From positions 62,001 through 126,000 of the forward strand of contig CP145410.1 in the NCBI GenBank assembly GCA_036867785.1: DNA of 64,000 nucleotides, read 5' to 3'. Below are positions 45,955-64,000 of the stretch, piece after piece. This stretch comes from Plasmodiophora brassicae (Eukaryota). The notes beneath the pieces are model-generated. The model was not told the DNA's origin. It worked only from the letters and a program-made list of their open reading frames with translations, and made no database searches. Position 1 is the first letter of the stretch. Each line of letters begins with the position of its first letter. A program made the position numbers and the translations under genes.

Positions 45955-46239
45955 CGGGCGCGCTCCTAACGCCCAGTCCAAAACGGAATGAACGGCCCGT
46001 CAGACGCCACACCGCTGCCGACTCGGACGGCGTCCCTTGGGGGCTTGGCCCGCCGACCGTCTGTGATGCGGTGCAAAACGTTTACCGACGGGCGGCGTTT
46101 TCTTCTGCGCGACTGGCACAACCGCTGCCCTGCGGGAGTGCTGACCGGCGCCGGACACTTCGCCGTGAAATATCTCGCACGACCCACAAGGGTACGGCCT
46201 ACTATGTACAGGTAGTTGACCGCGAAGTGTTTAACCATC

Positions 46240-55081: not shown

Positions 55082-55236
55082 CCGCTTCGCACCGCGCGCG
55101 CGGCCCCACAAATGGTACTCTGGTTGTGGCGGTGTATGTACCTCGGAATGGACTAATGAATCAAGGTCGAAGGGAGGCGGCGCGTGCCTGTGAAGGCCCC
55201 GCGAATGATATGTTGTGACGTTGCTTGTCCGAGACG

Positions 55237-58131
55237 ATGTCGAGCACACATGGCGGCGCGCCTGTCATCGTGCCGCGCCAGGTGCTATCCGAGGAGGACA
55301 CCCAAGTCCTGTTCCGCAAAGGGAAGATCCTGTCGGAGAAGACGCACGACGCCGTGCGACGCGACAAGGCCGTCCAGCTGTACGACAGGCTGATCCAGGC
55401 GTCCACGTTGCTGACCGATGCACAGCGCGAGGAGTTCAGGGCCGCCGGTAACGGCAAGGTCCTGTACTGCACGTGCACAATCGGACCGCACGCGCTCGAC
55501 GAGAACGGCCTCCTGTTCATGAAGATGGGCGCGGACGCACGCGGCCGCCCCTGCGATTGTCGTTGCACGCAATGCTCGGCGCGTCGTGGCGATCCCCACG
55601 CCCAGTTCCTGGTCGGCGTCATGTATTCGCAGGGGTTCGGCGCCCCGAAGAACATGAACCAGGCGTTCCACTGGTTCTCGCAGGCGGCCAACAAGGAGTG
55701 CCTGCCGGCCATGTTCGCCCTCGGCTACATGTACGACAACGGGTTGAGCGTCAGGCAGAACTACGACGAAGCAATGCTCTGGTACACGAAGGCGGCGAAC
55801 GCCGGGTACCCGGCCGCCAAGTTCCAGCTCGGGTGCATGCTGGAGATGGGCCTGGGCGTCGACAAGGATTTCGCGATGGCCTTGAACCTGTGGTCGGAAG
55901 CGGCCGAGGCCGGGTACCTGCCCGCCCTGCTCCGCCTGGCGTTCGTATTCCGTCATGGGGAAGGCGTCGAACCGAACATGACGGAAGCCGGCCGGTTGTA
56001 CAAATGCGCTGCCAAGCTGGGCGATACGGCGGCCATGACCACCGTCGGGTACATGTACGAGATGGGCCAAGGTTTCGAGCAGAACTTCCAGCAGGCGCTC
56101 GACTGGTACACGACGGCGGCGAAGGCGGGCGACCTGACGGCGCAGGCCAACCTCGCCAGCATGTACGAGCGCGGGCGCGGCGTCAAACGCGACCTGGAGA
56201 TGGCCCTGTACTGGTTCGAGGCGGCCGCCCAGCAGAACGACGCCACGTCGCAGATGATCCTGGGCTCCATGTACGAGCGCATCGAGGATTACTTCAAGGC
56301 GTTTTCCTGGTTCGAGAACGCCGCCGAACAGGGCCTTCCCGAGGCGCAGCGCCGTTGTGCCGACATGGTGCTCGCTGGCAAGGGCGTCGACGTCGACGTG
56401 CAACGCGCGATCTTCTGGTACGAGCACGCCGCGGACGAGGGCGACATCGAATCGATTCGCACGCTGGGCGCGATGTTCGCCGGCGATGGCGAGTACCGCA
56501 AGCTGGTGCGTTCCGATGCGGAGAAGGCGTTCCACTGGTTCCAGAAGGGGGCGGCCGCCGACGACCCGTACTGCAAGTTCAGGACGGCCGAGTGCCTGAT
56601 CCATGGCGACGGCTGCCCGGTTAGCGTCCGGGACGCCCTGGCGCTGTACAAGGACGCTGCCACGAGAGACGACCCGAACGCGATCGTCGCCCTGGGCAAG
56701 TTGTACATCGCCGGGCAGCATGTCGAGGAGGACGCCAACAAGGGGACGCAGCTGCTCAAACGCGCTGTGGAACTCGACTCGCCCGAAGGCAAATCCGCTC
56801 TGGCCGTCCAGATGCTGCTGGGGCAGGGCATCAAGCGCGACGTGTCGACGGCGCTGAAGCTTCTGGGCGAGGCATCCGAAGCCGGGTGCGCATCCGCTGA
56901 CTTCATGCTCGGGTTCCTGTACAAGGACGGCCGGGATGTGCCCCTCGATCTGGAGCGGGCGGTGCGGCACATGACGGCGGCGGCGAACGCGGGCGATTCC
57001 AGGGCGCAGTACAGCCTGGCCTGTCTGTACAAGTCGGGGATCGGCGTGATCCAGTCGTACGAGACAGCGAAACACTGGTTCAAGAAGGCGGCCAAGGCGG
57101 GCGACCACCGGGCGCAGTACAAGCTGGGGCGGCTGTTCGAGACCGGCCGAGGCGTTGCGATCGACTTCAAGATGGCCATCAAATGGTACACGAAGGCGTC
57201 CGAGCACGGCAACGACAGAGCGATGGTGGCGCTTGGCACGCTGTACGAGAAGGGCCTGGGCGCCAAGGTCGACCTGGACCTGGCGGCCAAGTTCTATGGT
57301 CAGGCGGCATCGGCCGGATCACCGGCCGGGCTCTGCGCCCTCGGCCTGCTGTACGACCTCGGCCGTGGCGTCAAGCAATCGTACAAGAAGGCGTTGCAGA
57401 TGTACGAGGCGGCCGCCAAGCAAGGGTACCCGAAGGCCATGTTCTACCTGGGCTACCTGTTGCAGTACGGGCAGGGCGTTGCGAAAGATGTGTCGAAGGC
57501 CGCCGAATGGTACAGGAAGGCAGCGGAAGCGGGTGACGGCGACGCGGCGTTCCACCTCGGGCGCCTGTACGACGAGGGCAGTGACGGGGCGGTTCAGAGG
57601 GACGCGGGCACGGCTCGGAAATGGTACACGTCTGCTGCTCAAGGTGGGCACACGGGCGCGGCCGATCGCCTGCGGGAGCTGGGCTACCCGGTGACACTCG
57701 ACGGCGGGAGGCTGACGAGAGCGGGATCGAAGACGACCAAGGTGGTCACCGGGCCGAACGGTCTCGTCAGGCGCGTGACCGGGCAGGCGATGAGCGCAGC
57801 GAACGCGGCGACTGGATCGGCGCTCACCCAGCAGGACAGCGACGACGAGAACGATGCGCAAGGAGGCAAGCAGCGTCGTCATCGTCAGCGGGCGCAGAAC
57901 AGCGGCCAGCCGGTACGGACGGTCGAGGACAGCGTTGCAATGGCTGCCGCTGCGGCCGCTGACCTCGCTGTGCCGCCCCCTGCCGGGCAGGCCACGACCG
58001 TGCCGCCTGCAACCGACGCGCCGCAGAGCGACGCCATCCTGGCCAGAATGAAATCGCTCTGGGATGACAACGCCACGCCGGCCACCACGGGCAACGGCGC
58101 GACGCCTGCTCCGATCGATGTCGGTCAATAG
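55237..58131 (+). CDS. Sel1-like repeat protein with ~18-20 repeats, apparently intronless
   Basis: Repeated AxxxLGxMYxxGxGVxxDxxxAxxWYxxAAxxG units across one 968-codon ORF. Confidence 0.92.
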   Translation: MSSTHGGAPVIVPRQVLSEEDTQVLFRKGKILSEKTHDAVRRDKAVQLYDRLIQASTLLTDAQREEFRAAGNGKVLYCTCTIGPHALDENGLLFMKMGADARGRPCDCRCTQCSARRGDPHAQFLVGVMYSQGFGAPKNMNQAFHWFSQAANKECLPAMFALGYMYDNGLSVRQNYDEAMLWYTKAANAGYPAAKFQLGCMLEMGLGVDKDFAMALNLWSEAAEAGYLPALLRLAFVFRHGEGVEPNMTEAGRLYKCAAKLGDTAAMTTVGYMYEMGQGFEQNFQQALDWYTTAAKAGDLTAQANLASMYERGRGVKRDLEMALYWFEAAAQQNDATSQMILGSMYERIEDYFKAFSWFENAAEQGLPEAQRRCADMVLAGKGVDVDVQRAIFWYEHAADEGDIESIRTLGAMFAGDGEYRKLVRSDAEKAFHWFQKGAAADDPYCKFRTAECLIHGDGCPVSVRDALALYKDAATRDDPNAIVALGKLYIAGQHVEEDANKGTQLLKRAVELDSPEGKSALAVQMLLGQGIKRDVSTALKLLGEASEAGCASADFMLGFLYKDGRDVPLDLERAVRHMTAAANAGDSRAQYSLACLYKSGIGVIQSYETAKHWFKKAAKAGDHRAQYKLGRLFETGRGVAIDFKMAIKWYTKASEHGNDRAMVALGTLYEKGLGAKVDLDLAAKFYGQAASAGSPAGLCALGLLYDLGRGVKQSYKKALQMYEAAAKQGYPKAMFYLGYLLQYGQGVAKDVSKAAEWYRKAAEAGDGDAAFHLGRLYDEGSDGAVQRDAGTARKWYTSAAQGGHTGAADRLRELGYPVTLDGGRLTRAGSKTTKVVTGPNGLVRRVTGQAMSAANAATGSALTQQDSDDENDAQGGKQRRHRQRAQNSGQPVRTVEDSVAMAAAAAADLAVPPPAGQATTVPPATDAPQSDAILARMKSLWDDNATPATTGNGATPAPIDVGQ

Positions 58132-58430: not shown

Positions 58431-61105
58431 ATGGCGTCGTCCGCGACGGCGCAGACCGCCCGGTTCTTTGTCGTCGAGAAGCGGCCGTTCGGGCGGGACT
58501 CCACCAGGATCATCGAGGTTCACCCCGACCTGGAGCAGGTACGGGTGTTCCCTGTTCGGCAGGCAGGCGCTGCTGACGTCGGATGCGGATCGAATCAGGT
58601 TCGTGTGCTGCGCGGCAAGAACCTCAACGTCTTGCATGAGATCCCGTGGATCCACTTTGCCGATGTATGGACTCGCTCGGCCCCGGACCGCAATTCAGGG
58701 CGTTCTGATCCTAGCGTTAGTCGTCCGAGGAAGACGACATGGTGCTGGCCCAGTGGTCGTCGTCGAAATCGGTCCGCTTCCAGTTCAGCTCTCAGACTCT
58801 GAAGCGTACGGATTCGTGCCGTACGCCGACGTGCACATGCCATCAGTAATGCAGTGGACGCCGCGCAGAACAGTTCCTTCGCATGATGTCCCAAGCCAGG
58901 TTGCAATCGCCACACCCGTTCCCGCCACCGGAGACCGAACGTTTCGAGGTTGGCCGCATGCCGCTCCTCGTCCTAAACGGGTCTGACACTTGACGCAGAC
59001 CGTCGGATTGTTGCCTGGGGAAACCATTGTCCATTTGGCCGACCATCTAAGTGTTTGTCGCGCGCAATGCTACCTGGTTCACAGTGGCCGACTGATTGTC
59101 ACCACCTACCGCCTCCTGTTCTCCACGTCTCCCGACCTGGATGCTGCCGATCGTTTCGTTTGTGTCTCGTTTTCGGTGGGTTCGTTGCATATGCGTTTGT
59201 AGGCCTGATGACACTATAGATGTATCTACAGGTAATCCCTCATCTGTCGATCGCAGAGGTTGATCTCAGCCGGGACACGTCATGCCTCACTGTTCATGTC
59301 AAGGACGGTCGAGAAGTCACGTATGACGTCGACGTCCTCGACGACGAGTCAAAAGACCACCTTGTGGACGTTATCGAGCAGCGTGCGTTCGCTTCCTCCC
59401 ATGACCAGTGCTTTGCGCTCCTGTACTGCAGCGCCTTACGCGTTCTACCCGACTGCCCGACGAGCTTCGAGCCGGACACATCCAACGTGTCGTCATATAA
59501 CTTCTGCCCCAGGATGATCGATGACTTGAAACGTGTCGGTCTGCTTGTTGAACCCTGCGGGCCGTGGAGACTGTCTGAGGCAAACACGTATGACGCGTCT
59601 CTGTCCCGCTTCAACGTGCAGGCTAATTGCTGTTTCAGGACATATCGCGTCTGCTCGAGCTATCCGTCTGCCCTCGTGGTTCCTAGCAAGGTCTCCGATG
59701 ATGTCATGGTCGAGTCGGCACAGTTTCGAAGCCAGAGCCGCCTCCCGGTTGCCTGCTGGGCCAACCCCAACGGCTGCGTTATCATGCGAAGTTCTCAGCC
59801 GCGAGCTGGGATTACCGGTTTAAGATCGACTATGGACGAGGTGTGTCAAACCGTGCAGGTTTCAGCGGTTTCCTGACCTGGACCTGTTAGATGATCATCA
59901 ACGAGGCTCGCCTGGCAAATCCCAATAGCAGGGTGCGTACCAATGGTATCAGGTTTGCAACGAGCCGTTGACTCTCTGGCTCTGCAGACCTTCATGATAT
60001 TCGACTTGCGGTCGAAGATGAACGTCATCGGAAACCAGCTGAAAGGGAAAGGGAGCGAGACGCCGACATATTACGCTAACTGTGTGGTCCTCTTCATGGG
60101 CATGAAGAACATACACGCCATACGCGAATCATTCCAGCAAGTGGTAAACCGGGCAACATCGCGAAGCGCTTCGGTGCAGGAAGATGAGTTGCTCTGTGGC
60201 GCAGGTAGAAATGTGTAGGAACCTCGGTGACGACCGCTGGTACGCCAAGCTGGATTCCACTCGGTATCTGCACAACGTGCAGGCTCTGCTGAAGACTTCT
60301 ATCCGTGTTGCTCAGTCGATCCACGAGGATCGCACCTCCGTCTTGATTCACTGCAGCGATGGTACAAGTGCTATGGTCGCCGTCGACCGCGCTCTATAAC
60401 CGTGCTGTGCAATCAGGGTGGGATCGGACGTGTCAGGTGTCAGCCATGACGCAACTGCTGCTGGATCCGTTTTACCGAACGCTCTCCGGGTTCATGGTGC
60501 TCATCCAGAAAGAATGGATCGAGTTTGGCCACCGATTCGCAACTCGTCATGCAGGTCAGCTTCGTTGGATACGTCGGGGGGTCGCCGACCTGACCCATAC
60601 CTGCAGGTGTAGGACGAGGCCAGCGTTCCAAGGCGGAGATATCTCCGATCTTCATGTTATTCCTCGACGCTGTGCACCAAGTGAAGATTCAGTGCCCAGA
60701 GGTACGTCGAGTACCGTTTACATTGTGAAAGTTCGTGTCAAATGGTCGCAACATTGCAGGAGTTCGAGTTCACCCTGCCGTTCCTGTGCGTCCTCGTCGA
60801 TGAATCCTACGGGGGACGATTCGGCAATTTCCTGTGCGACAGCGCGAAAGGTAGCCGTCGAGCCTCATCCACCACCACGTTGTGCTTCGTATGCCACTCA
60901 CCGGTCCGATTCAGAAATCGCTGATTCGCATATACAAACGCGGACAATGTCGATCTGGCATGATCTGGAGCAGCGCCGTGCTGATTTGACCGATGCAACG
61001 TTCCGCCCGACAGACAAACCCATATACCAGCGCGTCAAAGTGTCTGTCCGTCGCCTAACGCTCTGGAACGAATATTTCTGCAGATGGGATCTGGACAGGT
61101 CTTAA
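58431..61105 (+). CDS. Myotubularin-family phosphoinositide phosphatase, multi-exon
   Basis: GRAM-like GRLIVTTYRLLF, CSSYPSALVVP, FRSQSRLP, RSSQP, active site VLIHCSDG|WDRT and LIQKEWIEFGHRF. Confidence 0.92.
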
Positions 61106-61186
61106 TCGAGTAAGCCCAGGGAGTCGCCACCGATGTTTCTAACGCCTGTGCAGGTAGTGTTGTGCGAACAACCCAACAAAGTGTCA

Positions 61187-62217
<1,031 letters not shown>

Positions 62218-62422
62218 TCAAGGCAACTCAGAACATCTCCGCTCTGACCTGCCGATTTGTGCCGGGGGAAACTGCATCGCATCGCCGGGCCGGCGCGCCT
62301 GTCCGCCCGGTGCGGGTGGGTTAGGGTCATACCTGTTTTTGGAGGGATTGTGAATGTATTGGATATGTTGTCGGTCGTGGCGATCGCCTCGGTCGACAGG
62401 GGGGAGGGGGGTCGCCGGCCCG

Positions 62423-63538
62423 TCACATCATGGGCGCGGAGCCGGGGTAGGTGCTGGCGCGTGTGTTCGGTACCATGGACATATTAACGGGCAGGGCGGT
62501 GTCGTCGACAGGGACGGCGCCTGGCCGGGCGAGGACGGGCGGCGGCGGTAGCTTGTTGGCGTCGTAGTACGCGTCCTTGTTGGCGAGGTCGTGGTGGAAT
62601 TCGTTGGCGATCGTGTGGTGCTTGCCGAGGTTCGACGCCAGGTTCTGCATCAGTAGTTGTACGACCTGCCTGTCCATGTTGTCCATGCCTCGAAGTTGGT
62701 CTACGTGGCCGGTTGCGGATGGGTCGAACAGGCTGCCCAGGAACGAGTAGATCTTCTGAAAGTTCGGCGCCTTATTTGCTGTCCGACCGAATCAGGTCGA
62801 CACGTCATGATTGCGCGCCGTTCAACCCGTCTTACCGTCGTTGCCGTCCCCCTTCTTGTCTTCGCTGGAATGGGCAGCGATCGCCTGTTGCAGGTAGAAC
62901 TGGGCCTGGCTCAGTTGTTCCTGTTGCAGTTCGGCCAGCTGTTGGCGTTCCCACAGGGCCCACTGCAGGGAGTTGCCGACGGAAGCCTGCTGGATCATGG
63001 GTGTCGTGGCCGGCGCGATTTGATGGACGATGCTGCTGGCGGGAGTTCCGAACGGGTACGCGGCCGCTATGTAATCCGGGCTGCTCATCGGGGAGCCGTT
63101 CGCCAACTGGAAATCGGCGGGCATCTTTGGCTTTGGCCGGTCCCGGACGACCTTCGGGTACGGCTTCTTTGATCGGCGCTTGGGTCTCGGCGGCGGAATG
63201 CAGTCCTGCTTGCCGCTCTTCTGCATCTTGAGGAAGTACTTCTGCGCGTGCGACCTGATCTGTATCACGGTCTTCGTCTTGATGTGCGATTCGATCTGTT
63301 TCCATTCCCGTTCGAACAGCTGCAGCGCTTCGAGGAACAGGTCGTGCTCCTCTTCCGTCCACGATTCTCGAGGCTTCGTTATCGTGTACGGCTTCCTGGC
63401 CTTCTTCTGCTCCTTCTGCGACACCCCGGCGTGAGCCTTCCCGGTTACATGGTGGAGGTGCTCCAGTCTGCTCACCTTCGACTGCTTGCCACTAGATTGG
63501 GTGTCGACCTCTTTGCGGTCGAGGCTATGGTCCGCCAT
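62423..63538 (-). CDS. SHAQKYF single-Myb transcription factor, REVEILLE8/LCL-like
   Basis: [36 protein letters not shown]...[13 protein letters not shown]...PPPRPKRR; exon 2 encodes [16 protein letters not shown]...[10 protein letters not shown]. Confidence 0.88.
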
Positions 63539-64000
63539 GATGGGCTCCAGTGTCGCTAGGGGCACTGGCGGCGGCCCGCGCGCTAGACGCTAGTGGCACG
63601 GGCGGGTTCGGGTGCGGACAATGCCACCGGCGACCACGACGCGAGGCCCTCGGCTTAGGGCAATTGATTAGGTAAGGCCGGGGATCGAACTGGAGTCCCT
63701 GTGCTCGCTCCCCAGGGGTACCCTTAATAGAGGGTTGATCCGGAAGGAGACGCCCTTGGAGCTCGGGGACGGCCCGGTGCGCTTTGCGGAGCCGGTTGGC
63801 CGGTATGCCGCGCGATCTCGGCCTGTGTCGACCGCGCGTGTGGCACCAACCCTTTGAATCTATTCGTATGCCGCCTTCTTTGACTCGCAGCAGTAGGTCA
63901 GCCCGGTGAGGCGCGGCCAACCCGGGACAAGAAGCGCCGTCCGCCTGCCGGGGATGCAACGCAGGACACCTGCTCGAACTGCACGTGTCACAGCGAGACG

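What the first reader, a model, noticed from the sequence alone, without database searches (positions are those of the whole stretch)
62423..63538. Plant-clock-like REVEILLE8 factor with both Myb and LCL domains in a protist-like genome
Seen: exon 1 Myb [18 protein letters not shown]...[13 protein letters not shown]...[14 protein letters not shown], and exon 2, only partly in the ORF track, [47 protein letters not shown]. Known: Arabidopsis RVE4/6/8 have a nearly identical Myb plus an LCL domain (PDFAEVYxFIGSVFDP...LLLMRNLxxNL) that recruits LNK coactivators, and they bind the evening element. Inference: an ancient eukaryotic Myb-LCL module, a horizontal acquisition, or a clock component of a plant-associated parasite. 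No signal peptide is visible, which argues against a classical secreted effector.
Basis: partly seen in the sequence, partly recalled or inferred. Interest (0 to 1): 0.7.

Follow-up and report, generated by a model that had tools for sequence, protein, structure and literature searches.

The report
Ancient Myb-LCL factor in clubroot parasite
The clubroot parasite Plasmodiophora brassicae has a real, spliced gene for a transcription factor built like the plant clock activators RVE4/6/8, but the same build occurs in free-living amoebae and other rhizarians, so it is an old eukaryotic gene, not one taken from the host.

Summary
On the minus strand, 63538..62423, lies a gene of three coding exons. 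The 332-aa product has a SHAQKYF Myb domain (PF00249) and an LCL domain (PF24904, 62-64 bits against a cut-off of 27). The spliced translation is letter for letter a Plasmodiophora brassicae protein already in NCBI ('Myb-like DNA-binding domain containing protein'). It differs by one residue from PBRA_001758. Contigs in two public runs join all three exons at GT..AG borders.

The architecture is not confined to plants. Named Myb+LCL proteins occur in six Rhizaria and seven Amoebozoa, and in the basal streptophyte alga Chlorokybus. In trees the parasite sits in a 24-row clade (100/99) holding all six named Rhizaria, apart from Streptophyta. An AU test rejects placing the phytomyxids with plants (p 0.0097). 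Non-plant members share a Q-rich helix before the LCL that 0 of 152 streptophyte-type proteins carry.

Best reading: a native nuclear transcription factor, inherited vertically, co-orthologous to the whole plant LCL subfamily rather than to RVE8. A clock role and its LCL partner are untested. This is a new member of a known kind, of moderate interest.

The parts
63476..63538 (-). coding exon 1 (ATG at 63538; 21 codons)
   Evidence: an in-frame stop lies upstream at 63590-63592
   Evidence: skipped in contigs of runs X18 and X20; absent from P0003/P0123
62836..63415 (-). coding exon 2 (residues 22 to the first base of 215): Myb domain, PPPRPKRR motif, variable linker, Q-rich helix
63233..63370 (-). 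SHAQKYF-class Myb DNA-binding domain, residues 37-82
   Evidence: PF00249, 44 bits against cut-off 24.4; three helices 42-55, 59-66, 71-88 at pLDDT about 95; closest solved chain 6NVZ, EhMybS3, E 2.3e-17
62864..62974 (-). long Q-rich helix, residues 169-205 (core [16 protein letters not shown]), shared by non-plant Myb-LCL proteins
   Evidence: alignment; AF2 helix 169-205, pLDDT 77-87; motif HMM hits 60 of 112 other and 0 of 152 streptophyte-type proteins
62779..62835 (-). intron 2, 57 nt, GT..AG, phase 1
62423..62778 (-). coding exon 3 (rest of residue 215 to 332, plus stop at 62423-62425): LCL domain and a poorly modelled tail
62624..62767 (-). LCL (REVEILLE 6-like, PF24904) domain, residues 219-266
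   Evidence: 62 bits against cut-off 27, profile positions 2-49 of 63; helices 221-230, 239-244, 248-280 at pLDDT 93-96
62341..62422 (-). likely 3' UTR: both spliced contigs end at 62341 and 62344
   Evidence: table 8; contigs cannot prove an RNA end, so this is a weak hint

Best explanation
This is a native, expressed nuclear gene of Plasmodiophora brassicae (PBRA_001758). It encodes a single-Myb transcription factor of the LCL (RVE3/4/5/6/8-type) subfamily. The architecture is Myb, then PPPRPKRK motif, then Q-rich helix, then LCL. It was inherited vertically within Rhizaria from a family that predates land plants and also exists in Amoebozoa. Shown: the gene structure, the splicing, both domains, the taxonomic spread and the tree position. 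Inferred: the SHAQKYF recognition helix, whose core [13 protein letters not shown] is the same as in plant RVEs, binds a short A/T-rich site of the evening-element kind. Also inferred: the confidently folded three-helix LCL, together with the preceding long Q-rich helix, docks a partner protein that turns the factor into an activator. In land plants that partner is LNK. In this organism the partner is unknown, because LNKs are reported only from land plants. The protein most likely acts inside the parasite's own nucleus. Whether its targets are timed (diel or clock) genes is open.
For: Gene and product. Two GT..AG introns of 60 and 57 nt give a 999-nt CDS. Its translation is identical to NCBI's P. 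brassicae protein P0123 and differs by one residue from P0003 / PBRA_001758. Contigs of 1394 and 1584 nt, in runs X18 and X20 of two different studies, join all three exons exactly at those borders.

Native context. CDS GC is 0.603 against 0.613 for the window. The neighbours are intron-bearing eukaryotic genes: a Ras-family GTPase, a myotubularin-like phosphatase and a Sel1-repeat protein.

Domains. PF00249 and PF24904 both exceed their curated cut-offs. AF2 gives pLDDT about 95 for the Myb and 93-96 for the LCL.

Spread. 9 of 10 protist or algal proteins that I rescanned carry both domains above cut-off (P0143 has the LCL only); the 7 of them that a source names to species are Plasmodiophora, Lapot, Bigelowiella, Sappinia, Physarum, Heterostelium and Chlorokybus. 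Precomputed Pfam labels say the same for Spongospora, Lotharella, Thecamoeba, Cavenderia, Tieghemostelium and Polysphondylium (names). Bigelowiella and the four dictyostelids come from genome assemblies, not only from transcriptomes.

Trees. In tree 2 (71 rows, 140 columns) a 100/99 branch separates a 24-row clade holding all 6 named Rhizaria from the rest. Streptophyta form a 97/97 clade with Chlorokybus at the base, then mosses and Selaginella, ferns and angiosperms. Tree 1 gave the same split at 99/97. The AU test rejects phytomyxids plus 15 streptophyte rows held together: delta lnL 39.2, p 0.0097.

No convergence on the host. LCL identity to Brassica RVE8 and RVE6 is 21 and 24 of 49. It is 27 to 31 of 49 to Physarum, Sappinia, Lapot and Bigelowiella, but only 23 of 49 to Heterostelium.

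Shared derived feature with other protists. The Q-rich helix motif hits 60 of 112 non-streptophyte-type rows and 0 of 152 streptophyte-type rows.

Mechanism in plants. Passages state that RVE8 binds the evening element and induces evening genes (PMC5638080). They also state that LNK1 and LNK3 bind the LCL domain of RVE8, and that LNK homologues occur throughout land plants (PMC6356500).
Against: No functional datum exists for this protein. DNA site, partner, activator role and nuclear location are all inferred from plant relatives.

The trees rest on only 140 columns and are unrooted, so 'ancient and vertical' cannot be told from very old transfers between supergroups. Lapot, Lotharella, Sappinia, Thecamoeba and Physarum are known here only from transcriptomes, which can hold prey or contaminant sequences. 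The AU hypothesis was stated before tree 2 but after I had seen tree 1.

The rhizarian LCL matches only positions 2-49 or 2-51 of the 63-position Pfam profile and lacks the 'SPDFE'-like end kept by plants and Amoebozoa, so its partner surface may differ.

The evening element AAATATCT occurs once in the 64 kb window, at 46168. That is 0.34 expected, and 30 of 100 shuffles do as well, so there is no sign of local target sites.

The library type of runs X18 and X20 is not on record, so 'transcript' is my reading of intron-less contigs.
Confidence: 0.8

Rival explanations
1. Recent horizontal transfer from a host plant: the parasite captured a Brassicaceae or other land-plant RVE gene.
For: The parasite lives inside plant cells. 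In the first search, plant RVE3/5/6/8 fill the hit list after ten protist rows. The recognition-helix core of the Myb is the same as in plants.
Against: The gene sits with five other named Rhizaria in a 100/99 clade, away from a 97/97 streptophyte clade. The AU test rejects the union (p 0.0097). It carries the Q-rich helix that 0 of 152 streptophyte-type proteins have. Its introns are 57-60 nt and its GC equals the window's. LCL identity to Brassica RVE6/RVE8 (24 and 21 of 49) is lower than to four of the five named protists compared, Physarum, Sappinia, Lapot and Bigelowiella (27 to 31 of 49); Heterostelium is at 23 of 49.
Confidence: 0.02
2. Old transfer from an alga: Rhizaria, and separately Amoebozoa, obtained the Myb-LCL gene from a green or other archaeplastid alga. 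One route would be the green endosymbiont of chlorarachniophytes, with later spread.
For: Chlorarachniophytes (Bigelowiella, Lotharella) carry it and have a green-algal endosymbiont (abstract of PMC5635652). The tree is unrooted, so direction is not fixed. Among named hits the family was not seen in opisthokonts, stramenopiles or alveolates.
Against: The plastid-less Lapot, Plasmodiophora and Spongospora lie in the same clade, and chlorarachniophytes are nested in it rather than basal. The clade does not branch within or next to Streptophyta. Per passages of PMC5638080, the Chlamydomonas and Ostreococcus homologues could not be assigned to the LCL clade, so a green-algal donor with an LCL is not known. 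Rhizaria and Amoebozoa share the Q-rich helix that streptophytes lack.
Confidence: 0.1
3. Host-directed mimic: the protein is delivered into the plant cell and competes with host RVE4/6/8 for evening-element sites or for LNK coactivators, shifting host clock-controlled genes.
For: It has the same domain pair as the host activators. It comes from an intracellular plant parasite.
Against: The N-terminus is hydrophilic, with no signal-peptide-like stretch (by eye). Free-living Lapot, dictyostelids and Physarum have the same protein, so no parasitic role is needed to explain it. The LCL is not closer to the host's than other protists' LCLs are, and it lacks the C-terminal part of the plant domain.
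Confidence: 0.03
4. Component of a parasite timing circuit: the factor is rhythmically expressed and drives diel or circadian gene expression in P. brassicae, perhaps entrained by host rhythms. This is compatible with the best explanation and adds a specific role to it.
For: Plant LCL-subfamily members are clock activators (passages of PMC5638080). In Bigelowiella two other CCA1/LHY-like Myb genes cycle over the day (passages of PMC5635652).
Against: The Bigelowiella orthologue found here (JGI 87346) is not one of the two cycling genes named in those passages (27638 and 91355). I did not see that paper's supplements. No TOC1 homologue was found in Bigelowiella (same passages). No time-series data were available to me. 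Heterotrophic soil amoebae keep the gene too.
Confidence: 0.12

Closest known systems
Plant LCL subfamily of the REVEILLE family (Arabidopsis RVE3/4/5/6/8, also called LCL; Pfam PF00249 + PF24904)
   Same: Single SHAQKYF (not SHAQKFF) Myb, followed by PPPRPKR(K/R) and PYP, then an LCL domain with Y-x-F-(L/I)-G-S-(L/V)-F-D-P and L-L-M-x-N-L-x-x-N-L. Both Pfam models are above cut-off. The Myb region matches Brassica RVE8 and RVE6 at 57 and 61 of 81 positions.
   Different: It lies outside the whole streptophyte clade, so it is not an RVE8 orthologue. It has an extra conserved Q-rich helix 6-38 residues before the LCL (median 15 over the 60 proteins hit), which 0 of 152 streptophyte-type proteins have. 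The LCL matches only profile positions 2-49 of 63. LCL identity to the Brassica proteins is only 21-24 of 49. The plant partner LNK is reported from land plants only (passage of PMC6356500).
Unstudied 'myb domain-containing proteins' of dictyostelids (Heterostelium album, Cavenderia fasciculata, Tieghemostelium lacteum, Polysphondylium violaceum), Physarum, and thecamoebid amoebae
   Same: The same four-part build, including the Q-rich helix (QQEQLQQAQxYLQQAM) and the LCL.
   Different: They fall on the other side of the 100/99 branch from the rhizarian clade. They keep the C-terminal 'NQQFRD' end of the LCL, matching profile positions 2-60 or 2-63. No function is on record in the names that the sources give them.
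CCA1/LHY clock repressors
   Same: The same Myb class and, per the literature, the same evening-element target (passages of PMC5638080).
   Different: CCA1/LHY carry SHAQKFF and lack the LCL region (same passages). The protein here has SHAQKYF and an LCL.
EhMybS3 of Entamoeba histolytica (PDB 6NVZ), a SHAQKYF Myb DNA-binding domain
   Same: The closest solved structure by sequence (E 2.3e-17, residues 34-88) and by fold (Foldseek rank 1, 62% identity over 52 columns, E 7.6e-03).
   Different: The solved chain is the 60-residue DNA-binding domain only, with no LCL. No solved structure matched the LCL part: 0 Foldseek matches at E <= 0.001.

Membership tests
REVEILLE family, LCL subfamily (RVE3/4/5/6/8 type) | One Myb/SANT repeat of the SHAQKYF class | tested here: met
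   PF00249, 44-44.8 bits against cut-off 24.4; the motif SHAQKYF is in the sequence
REVEILLE family, LCL subfamily (RVE3/4/5/6/8 type) | SHAQKYF version of the motif rather than the SHAQKFF of the CCA1 clade (criterion from a figure legend of PMC5638080) | tested here: met
   [13 protein letters not shown] in the sequence
REVEILLE family, LCL subfamily (RVE3/4/5/6/8 type) | Conserved LCL region outside the Myb domain (Pfam PF24904) | tested here: met
   62-64.5 bits against cut-off 27, E 1e-17. Only profile positions 2-49 of 63 are covered.
REVEILLE family, LCL subfamily (RVE3/4/5/6/8 type) | Placement inside the plant LCL clade, that is, orthology to a particular RVE such as RVE8 | tested here: not met
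   It lies outside the 97/97 streptophyte clade. The AU test rejects union with Streptophyta, p 0.0097. At most it is co-orthologous to the whole subfamily.
REVEILLE family, LCL subfamily (RVE3/4/5/6/8 type) | Binding to the evening element AAATATCT | not testable with these tools
   Inferred only from the identical recognition helix. The motif count in the window is at chance.
REVEILLE family, LCL subfamily (RVE3/4/5/6/8 type) | LCL-mediated recruitment of LNK coactivators | not tested
LNKs are reported from land plants (passage of PMC6356500).
REVEILLE family, LCL subfamily (RVE3/4/5/6/8 type) | Rhythmic (morning-phased) expression and a clock function | not testable with these tools
   Only contigs of public runs could be laid. 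They cannot give expression levels or timing.
Secreted effector of a plant parasite | N-terminal signal peptide or other export signal | tested here: inconclusive
   The N-terminus is hydrophilic by eye. No signal-peptide predictor was available.

The most novel reading that the evidence does not exclude
The Myb / Q-rich helix / LCL build is the ancestral, pre-plant form of the plant clock activators. Its LCL plus Q-helix docks a still unidentified coactivator that is conserved from Amoebozoa to Rhizaria. Streptophytes later lost the Q-helix and recruited LNK instead. In P. brassicae this old module could time parasite gene expression to the host's daily metabolic cycle. That would make the origin of the plant clock's activating arm, and a non-plant partner of the LCL, directly testable in dictyostelids or Physarum.
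Probability: 0.15. Interest if true: 0.7.

Novelty: new member of a known kind. Interest (0 to 1): 0.4.

Why it matters
For the parasite, it identifies PBRA_001758, so far named only 'hypothetical' or 'Myb-like', as an LCL-type factor. It also removes the tempting idea that clubroot stole a host clock gene.

For clock evolution, passages of Linde et al. 2017 (PMC5638080) trace the LCL clade back only to the charophyte Klebsormidium. They leave the chlorophyte homologues unassigned. Here the LCL domain, with its Myb, is found in genome assemblies of four dictyostelids and Bigelowiella. This Plasmodiophora window is genomic too. It is also found in transcriptomes of Physarum, two thecamoebids, Spongospora, Lapot and Lotharella. 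So the LCL type is older than plants and older than its only known partner, LNK. That points to an LNK-independent ancestral function, which can be studied in tractable amoebae.

My ten literature searches found no paper saying this. The library lacks most subscription journals, and the domain distribution is probably visible in Pfam/InterPro, so the claim of novelty is modest.

Tried and rejected
1. Whole-genome search for further LCL genes or LNK: no genome is held for this window.

2. LCL-only word-index search (P0003 residues 212-272): only 6 candidates and 5 hits, too restrictive to show the spread.

3. Run search: no RNA holder listed. Four holders were laid anyway.

4. Homodimer prediction of residues 160-285: no verdict, score 0.01 against the mark of 0.32. 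The alignment was not used and the controls were not run. This is no evidence either way.

5. Foldseek of the AF2 model against the PDB: only Myb/SANT matches, none at E <= 0.001, and nothing for the LCL. The Atlas structure rows for residues 205-280 were generic small helical domains beyond the PF24904 clusters.

6. Evening element in the window: 1 match against 0.34 expected.

7. Second copy in the window: my Myb, Q-helix and LCL HMMs hit only this locus among six-frame ORFs of 25 aa or more.

8. Earlier scan notes: nothing on this genome or sequence. Two notes on a broken Naegleria Myb gene do not bear on this.

9. Literature. 'Plasmodiophora' + 'REVEILLE' gave 2 papers, seen as search listing only, both about host plants. 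'PBRA_001758' gave 0. 'LCL domain' + REVEILLE + algae gave 0. REVEILLE + Dictyostelium gave 2, both merely citing an author named Reveiller. A five-term query gave 0.

10. My first Q-helix count used a regex that misfiled some plants as 'other'. It was redone with a Myb signature. The 52 'other' rows without a hit still include plant fragments and rows that show the motif by eye, so 60 of 112 is a lower bound.

11. The 90% identity to P0003 was an artefact of my query reading through intron 1.

12. Rows dropped from trees for short domains: P0196, P0209 and P0267. None were dropped in tree 2.
Full report
1. WHAT IS IN THE SEQUENCE

The feature lies on the minus strand. The minus-strand sequence shows a GTAAG donor right after ...GGCAACGACG and an AG acceptor before CAAATAAGGCGCCG. 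That gives a 57-nt phase-1 intron, 62835..62779.

The nearest database protein, P0003, lacks 20 residues that my first translation had near the N-terminus. They correspond to a second GT..AG intron of 60 nt, 63475..63416. With both introns removed the CDS is 999 nt and the protein 332 aa. The translation is identical to P0123, named by NCBI 'Myb-like DNA-binding domain containing protein [Plasmodiophora brassicae]'. It differs at one residue (L6P) from P0003, 'hypothetical protein PBRA_001758'. So the window is P. brassicae (Rhizaria, Endomyxa, Phytomyxea), from an isolate other than the one behind PBRA_001758. The gene is already annotated.

2. IS IT REAL AND SPLICED?

Four public runs that hold the stretch were laid on 62300..63700. 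In X18 and X20, which belong to two studies and carry two organism labels, single contigs of 1394 and 1584 nt skip exactly 62779..62835 and 63416..63475. Both skips read CT..AC on the plus strand, which is GT..AG on the minus strand. X8 and X16 hold the unspliced form. The library type of these runs is not on record, so reading the intron-less contigs as transcript assemblies is my inference. Both spliced contigs stop at 62341 and 62344, about 80 nt past the stop codon.

The locus looks native. CDS GC is 0.603 against 0.613 for the window (window profile 0.576-0.672). The neighbours are a Ras-family small GTPase with introns, a split myotubularin-like phosphatase and a 970-aa Sel1-repeat ORF.

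3. DOMAINS AND FOLD

Pfam gives PF00249 (Myb) at residues 37-82, 44 bits against a cut-off of 24.4. It gives PF24904 (REVEILLE 6-like, the LCL) at residues 219-266, 62 bits against a cut-off of 27 (exon-wise). The ESM Atlas features search on residues 205-280 also lands on PF24904 clusters, score 0.92.

AlphaFold2 with a 53-row alignment (A2) gives the following:
- the three Myb helices at pLDDT about 95;
- a long single helix, residues 169-205, at 77-87;
- a three-helix LCL (221-230, 239-244, 248-280) at 93-96;
- the rest is poorly modelled, and the mean pLDDT is 68.7.

The closest solved chain is the Entamoeba SHAQKYF Myb EhMybS3, 6NVZ. Nothing solved matches the LCL.

4. WHO ELSE HAS IT

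The first search returned 2018 proteins at E <= 0.001 from 2165 candidates. The top rows were P. brassicae, Spongospora subterranea (68% identity) and eight protist-like sequences. Land-plant RVE3/5/6/8 followed.

A phmmer search of the LCL exon against 1.84 billion representatives gave 207 hits at E <= 0.001 and 18 at E <= 1e-10.

A profile of 25 non-plant members (A1) returned 2116 proteins at E <= 1e-10 from 8000 scored candidates, of which 120 were listed.

Names came from those tables and from three cluster look-ups.
- Rhizaria: Plasmodiophora, Spongospora, Lapot gusevi (Aquavolonida), Lotharella oceanica and L. globosa, Bigelowiella natans (JGI model 87346).
- Amoebozoa: Sappinia pedata, Thecamoeba quadrilineata, Physarum polycephalum, Heterostelium album, Cavenderia fasciculata, Tieghemostelium lacteum, Polysphondylium violaceum.
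- Streptophyte alga: Chlorokybus atmophyticus.
- Unnamed: several MMETSP and EukProt transcripts came without readable organism names. One EukProt id of the form 'tig...' I recall as the style of Cyanophora gene ids; no call checked this.

I rescanned ten of these proteins myself. Nine carry both domains above cut-off. One unnamed 588-aa protein (P0143) has the LCL only.

No named hit was an opisthokont, stramenopile or alveolate.

5. TREES

Tree 1 had 70 rows after dropping P0196, P0209 and P0267 for short Myb parts. It used 140 Myb plus LCL columns under LG+C20+F+G4. A 99/97 branch split a 40-row group, with all land plants in moss, fern, angiosperm order, from a 30-row protist group. Inside the protist group a 100/100 clade of 20 rows held Plasmodiophora, Spongospora, Lapot and Lotharella.

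Tree 2 had 71 rows, none dropped, and more named taxa.
- A 100/99 branch separates a 24-row clade with all six named Rhizaria from everything else.
- Plasmodiophora and Spongospora are sisters (100/94).
- Streptophyta form a 97/97 clade with Chlorokybus at the base.
- The 'tig' plus MMETSP group is their sister at 91/77.
- The four dictyostelids are 100/98 and join Physarum at 92/92.
- The two thecamoebids are unresolved.

The AU test rejects the two phytomyxids held together with the 15 streptophyte rows against the 11 other named rows: delta lnL 39.2, p 0.0097. I had named this hypothesis before tree 2 but after seeing tree 1. The trees are unrooted and short.

6. A FEATURE THE PLANTS LACK

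The alignment shows a conserved motif, about QQEQLxQAQxYLQQA, lying 6-38 residues (median 15 over the 60 proteins hit) before the LCL. It occurs in Rhizaria, Amoebozoa and the 'tig'/MMETSP group, and has no counterpart in Streptophyta.

An HMM of this helix, built from 12 named rhizarian and amoebozoan rows, hits 0 of 152 streptophyte-type Myb+LCL proteins. The 52 misses include N-terminally truncated plant fragments and protists that show the motif by eye, so 60 is a lower bound.

Identity of the P. brassicae helix to the others is 34 of 37 (Spongospora), 18 of 35-37 (Lapot, Bigelowiella), 14 of 31 (Physarum) and 1-5 of 24-36 (plants).

In the other direction, rhizarian LCLs stop at Pfam profile position 49-51 of 63. 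Amoebozoan and plant ones run to 60-63.

7. HOW IT MOST LIKELY WORKS

Shown: the protein is a single-Myb factor with an LCL.

[quoted passage not shown] LNK1 and LNK3 bind the LCL of RVE8, and LNKs occur throughout land plants (PMC6356500).

Inferred: the recognition helix core ([13 protein letters not shown]) is the same as in plants, so a similar A/T-rich site is likely. The LCL is the best-folded part besides the Myb and is kept across supergroups. It is therefore a docking module whose ancestral partner cannot be LNK. The long Q-rich helix next to it may be part of that surface or a coiled coil.

The hydrophilic N-terminus and the basic [11 protein letters not shown] stretch fit a nuclear protein of the parasite itself.

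8. COMPARISON WITH WHAT IS KNOWN, AND NOVELTY

SHAQKYF Mybs are known from plants, algae, Dictyostelium and Entamoeba (passages of PMC6278869, and PMC10887745). A survey of SAR Mybs says that rhizarian Mybs are little studied (passages of PMC8854648). For Bigelowiella, two other CCA1/LHY-like Myb genes were reported to cycle, and no TOC1 was found (passages of PMC5635652). The orthologue found here is not among those two.

None of my ten searches found a paper on an LCL domain outside plants or on this P. brassicae gene. The library is incomplete.

The gene itself is annotated, and its domain pair can be read from Pfam. I therefore file it as a new member of a known kind. The wider point is that the LCL type predates plants and LNK and carries an extra helix outside Streptophyta. 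That is a modest but useful evolutionary finding.

9. VERDICT

Interest is 0.4.

Noticed in passing
window 61184-62103 (-): Directly downstream on the same strand lies an intron-bearing small GTPase gene. Its first coding piece starts [20 protein letters not shown]. Pfam Ras family: 67.5 and 73.8 bits on two pieces. By eye it resembles Rab2; that name is recalled, not tested. Only about 240 nt separate its ATG from the end of the Myb-LCL transcript contigs.
   Followed up: partly
window 55219-58131 (+): A 970-aa open frame made almost wholly of Sel1 repeats (PF08238, 14 stretches, 431.6 bits).
   Followed up: partly
window 59220-59876 and 60347-61105 (+): Two frames match different parts of the myotubularin-like phosphatase domain (PF06602, profile positions 48-117 and 240-287). 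This is presumably one gene split by introns.
   Followed up: partly
window 63430-63496: Run X16 has a 60-nt contig that skips 65 nt with GT..AG on the PLUS strand, overlapping intron 1 of the gene (depth 3.6, only 30 letters on each side). It could be an antisense or aberrant splice, or an assembly quirk. Unexplained.
   Followed up: no
P0143 (588 aa, unnamed Logan contig): A protein with an LCL domain (PF24904, 74.5 bits) but no Myb domain in my hmmscan. LCL-only proteins may exist outside plants, or this gene model may be incomplete.
   Followed up: partly
P0140 (132 aa) and P0139 (84 aa), representative library: P0140 is 87% identical to the LCL exon product over residues 1-71. That is closer than Spongospora (59%) but not identical, so it is possibly another phytomyxid. 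P0139 is a 100% identical fragment of the C-terminal tail.
   Followed up: no
window 63523 region (codon 6 of the gene): One amino-acid difference (L here, P in PBRA_001758), while another NCBI P. brassicae protein (P0123) is identical to the window. This is isolate-level variation.
   Followed up: yes
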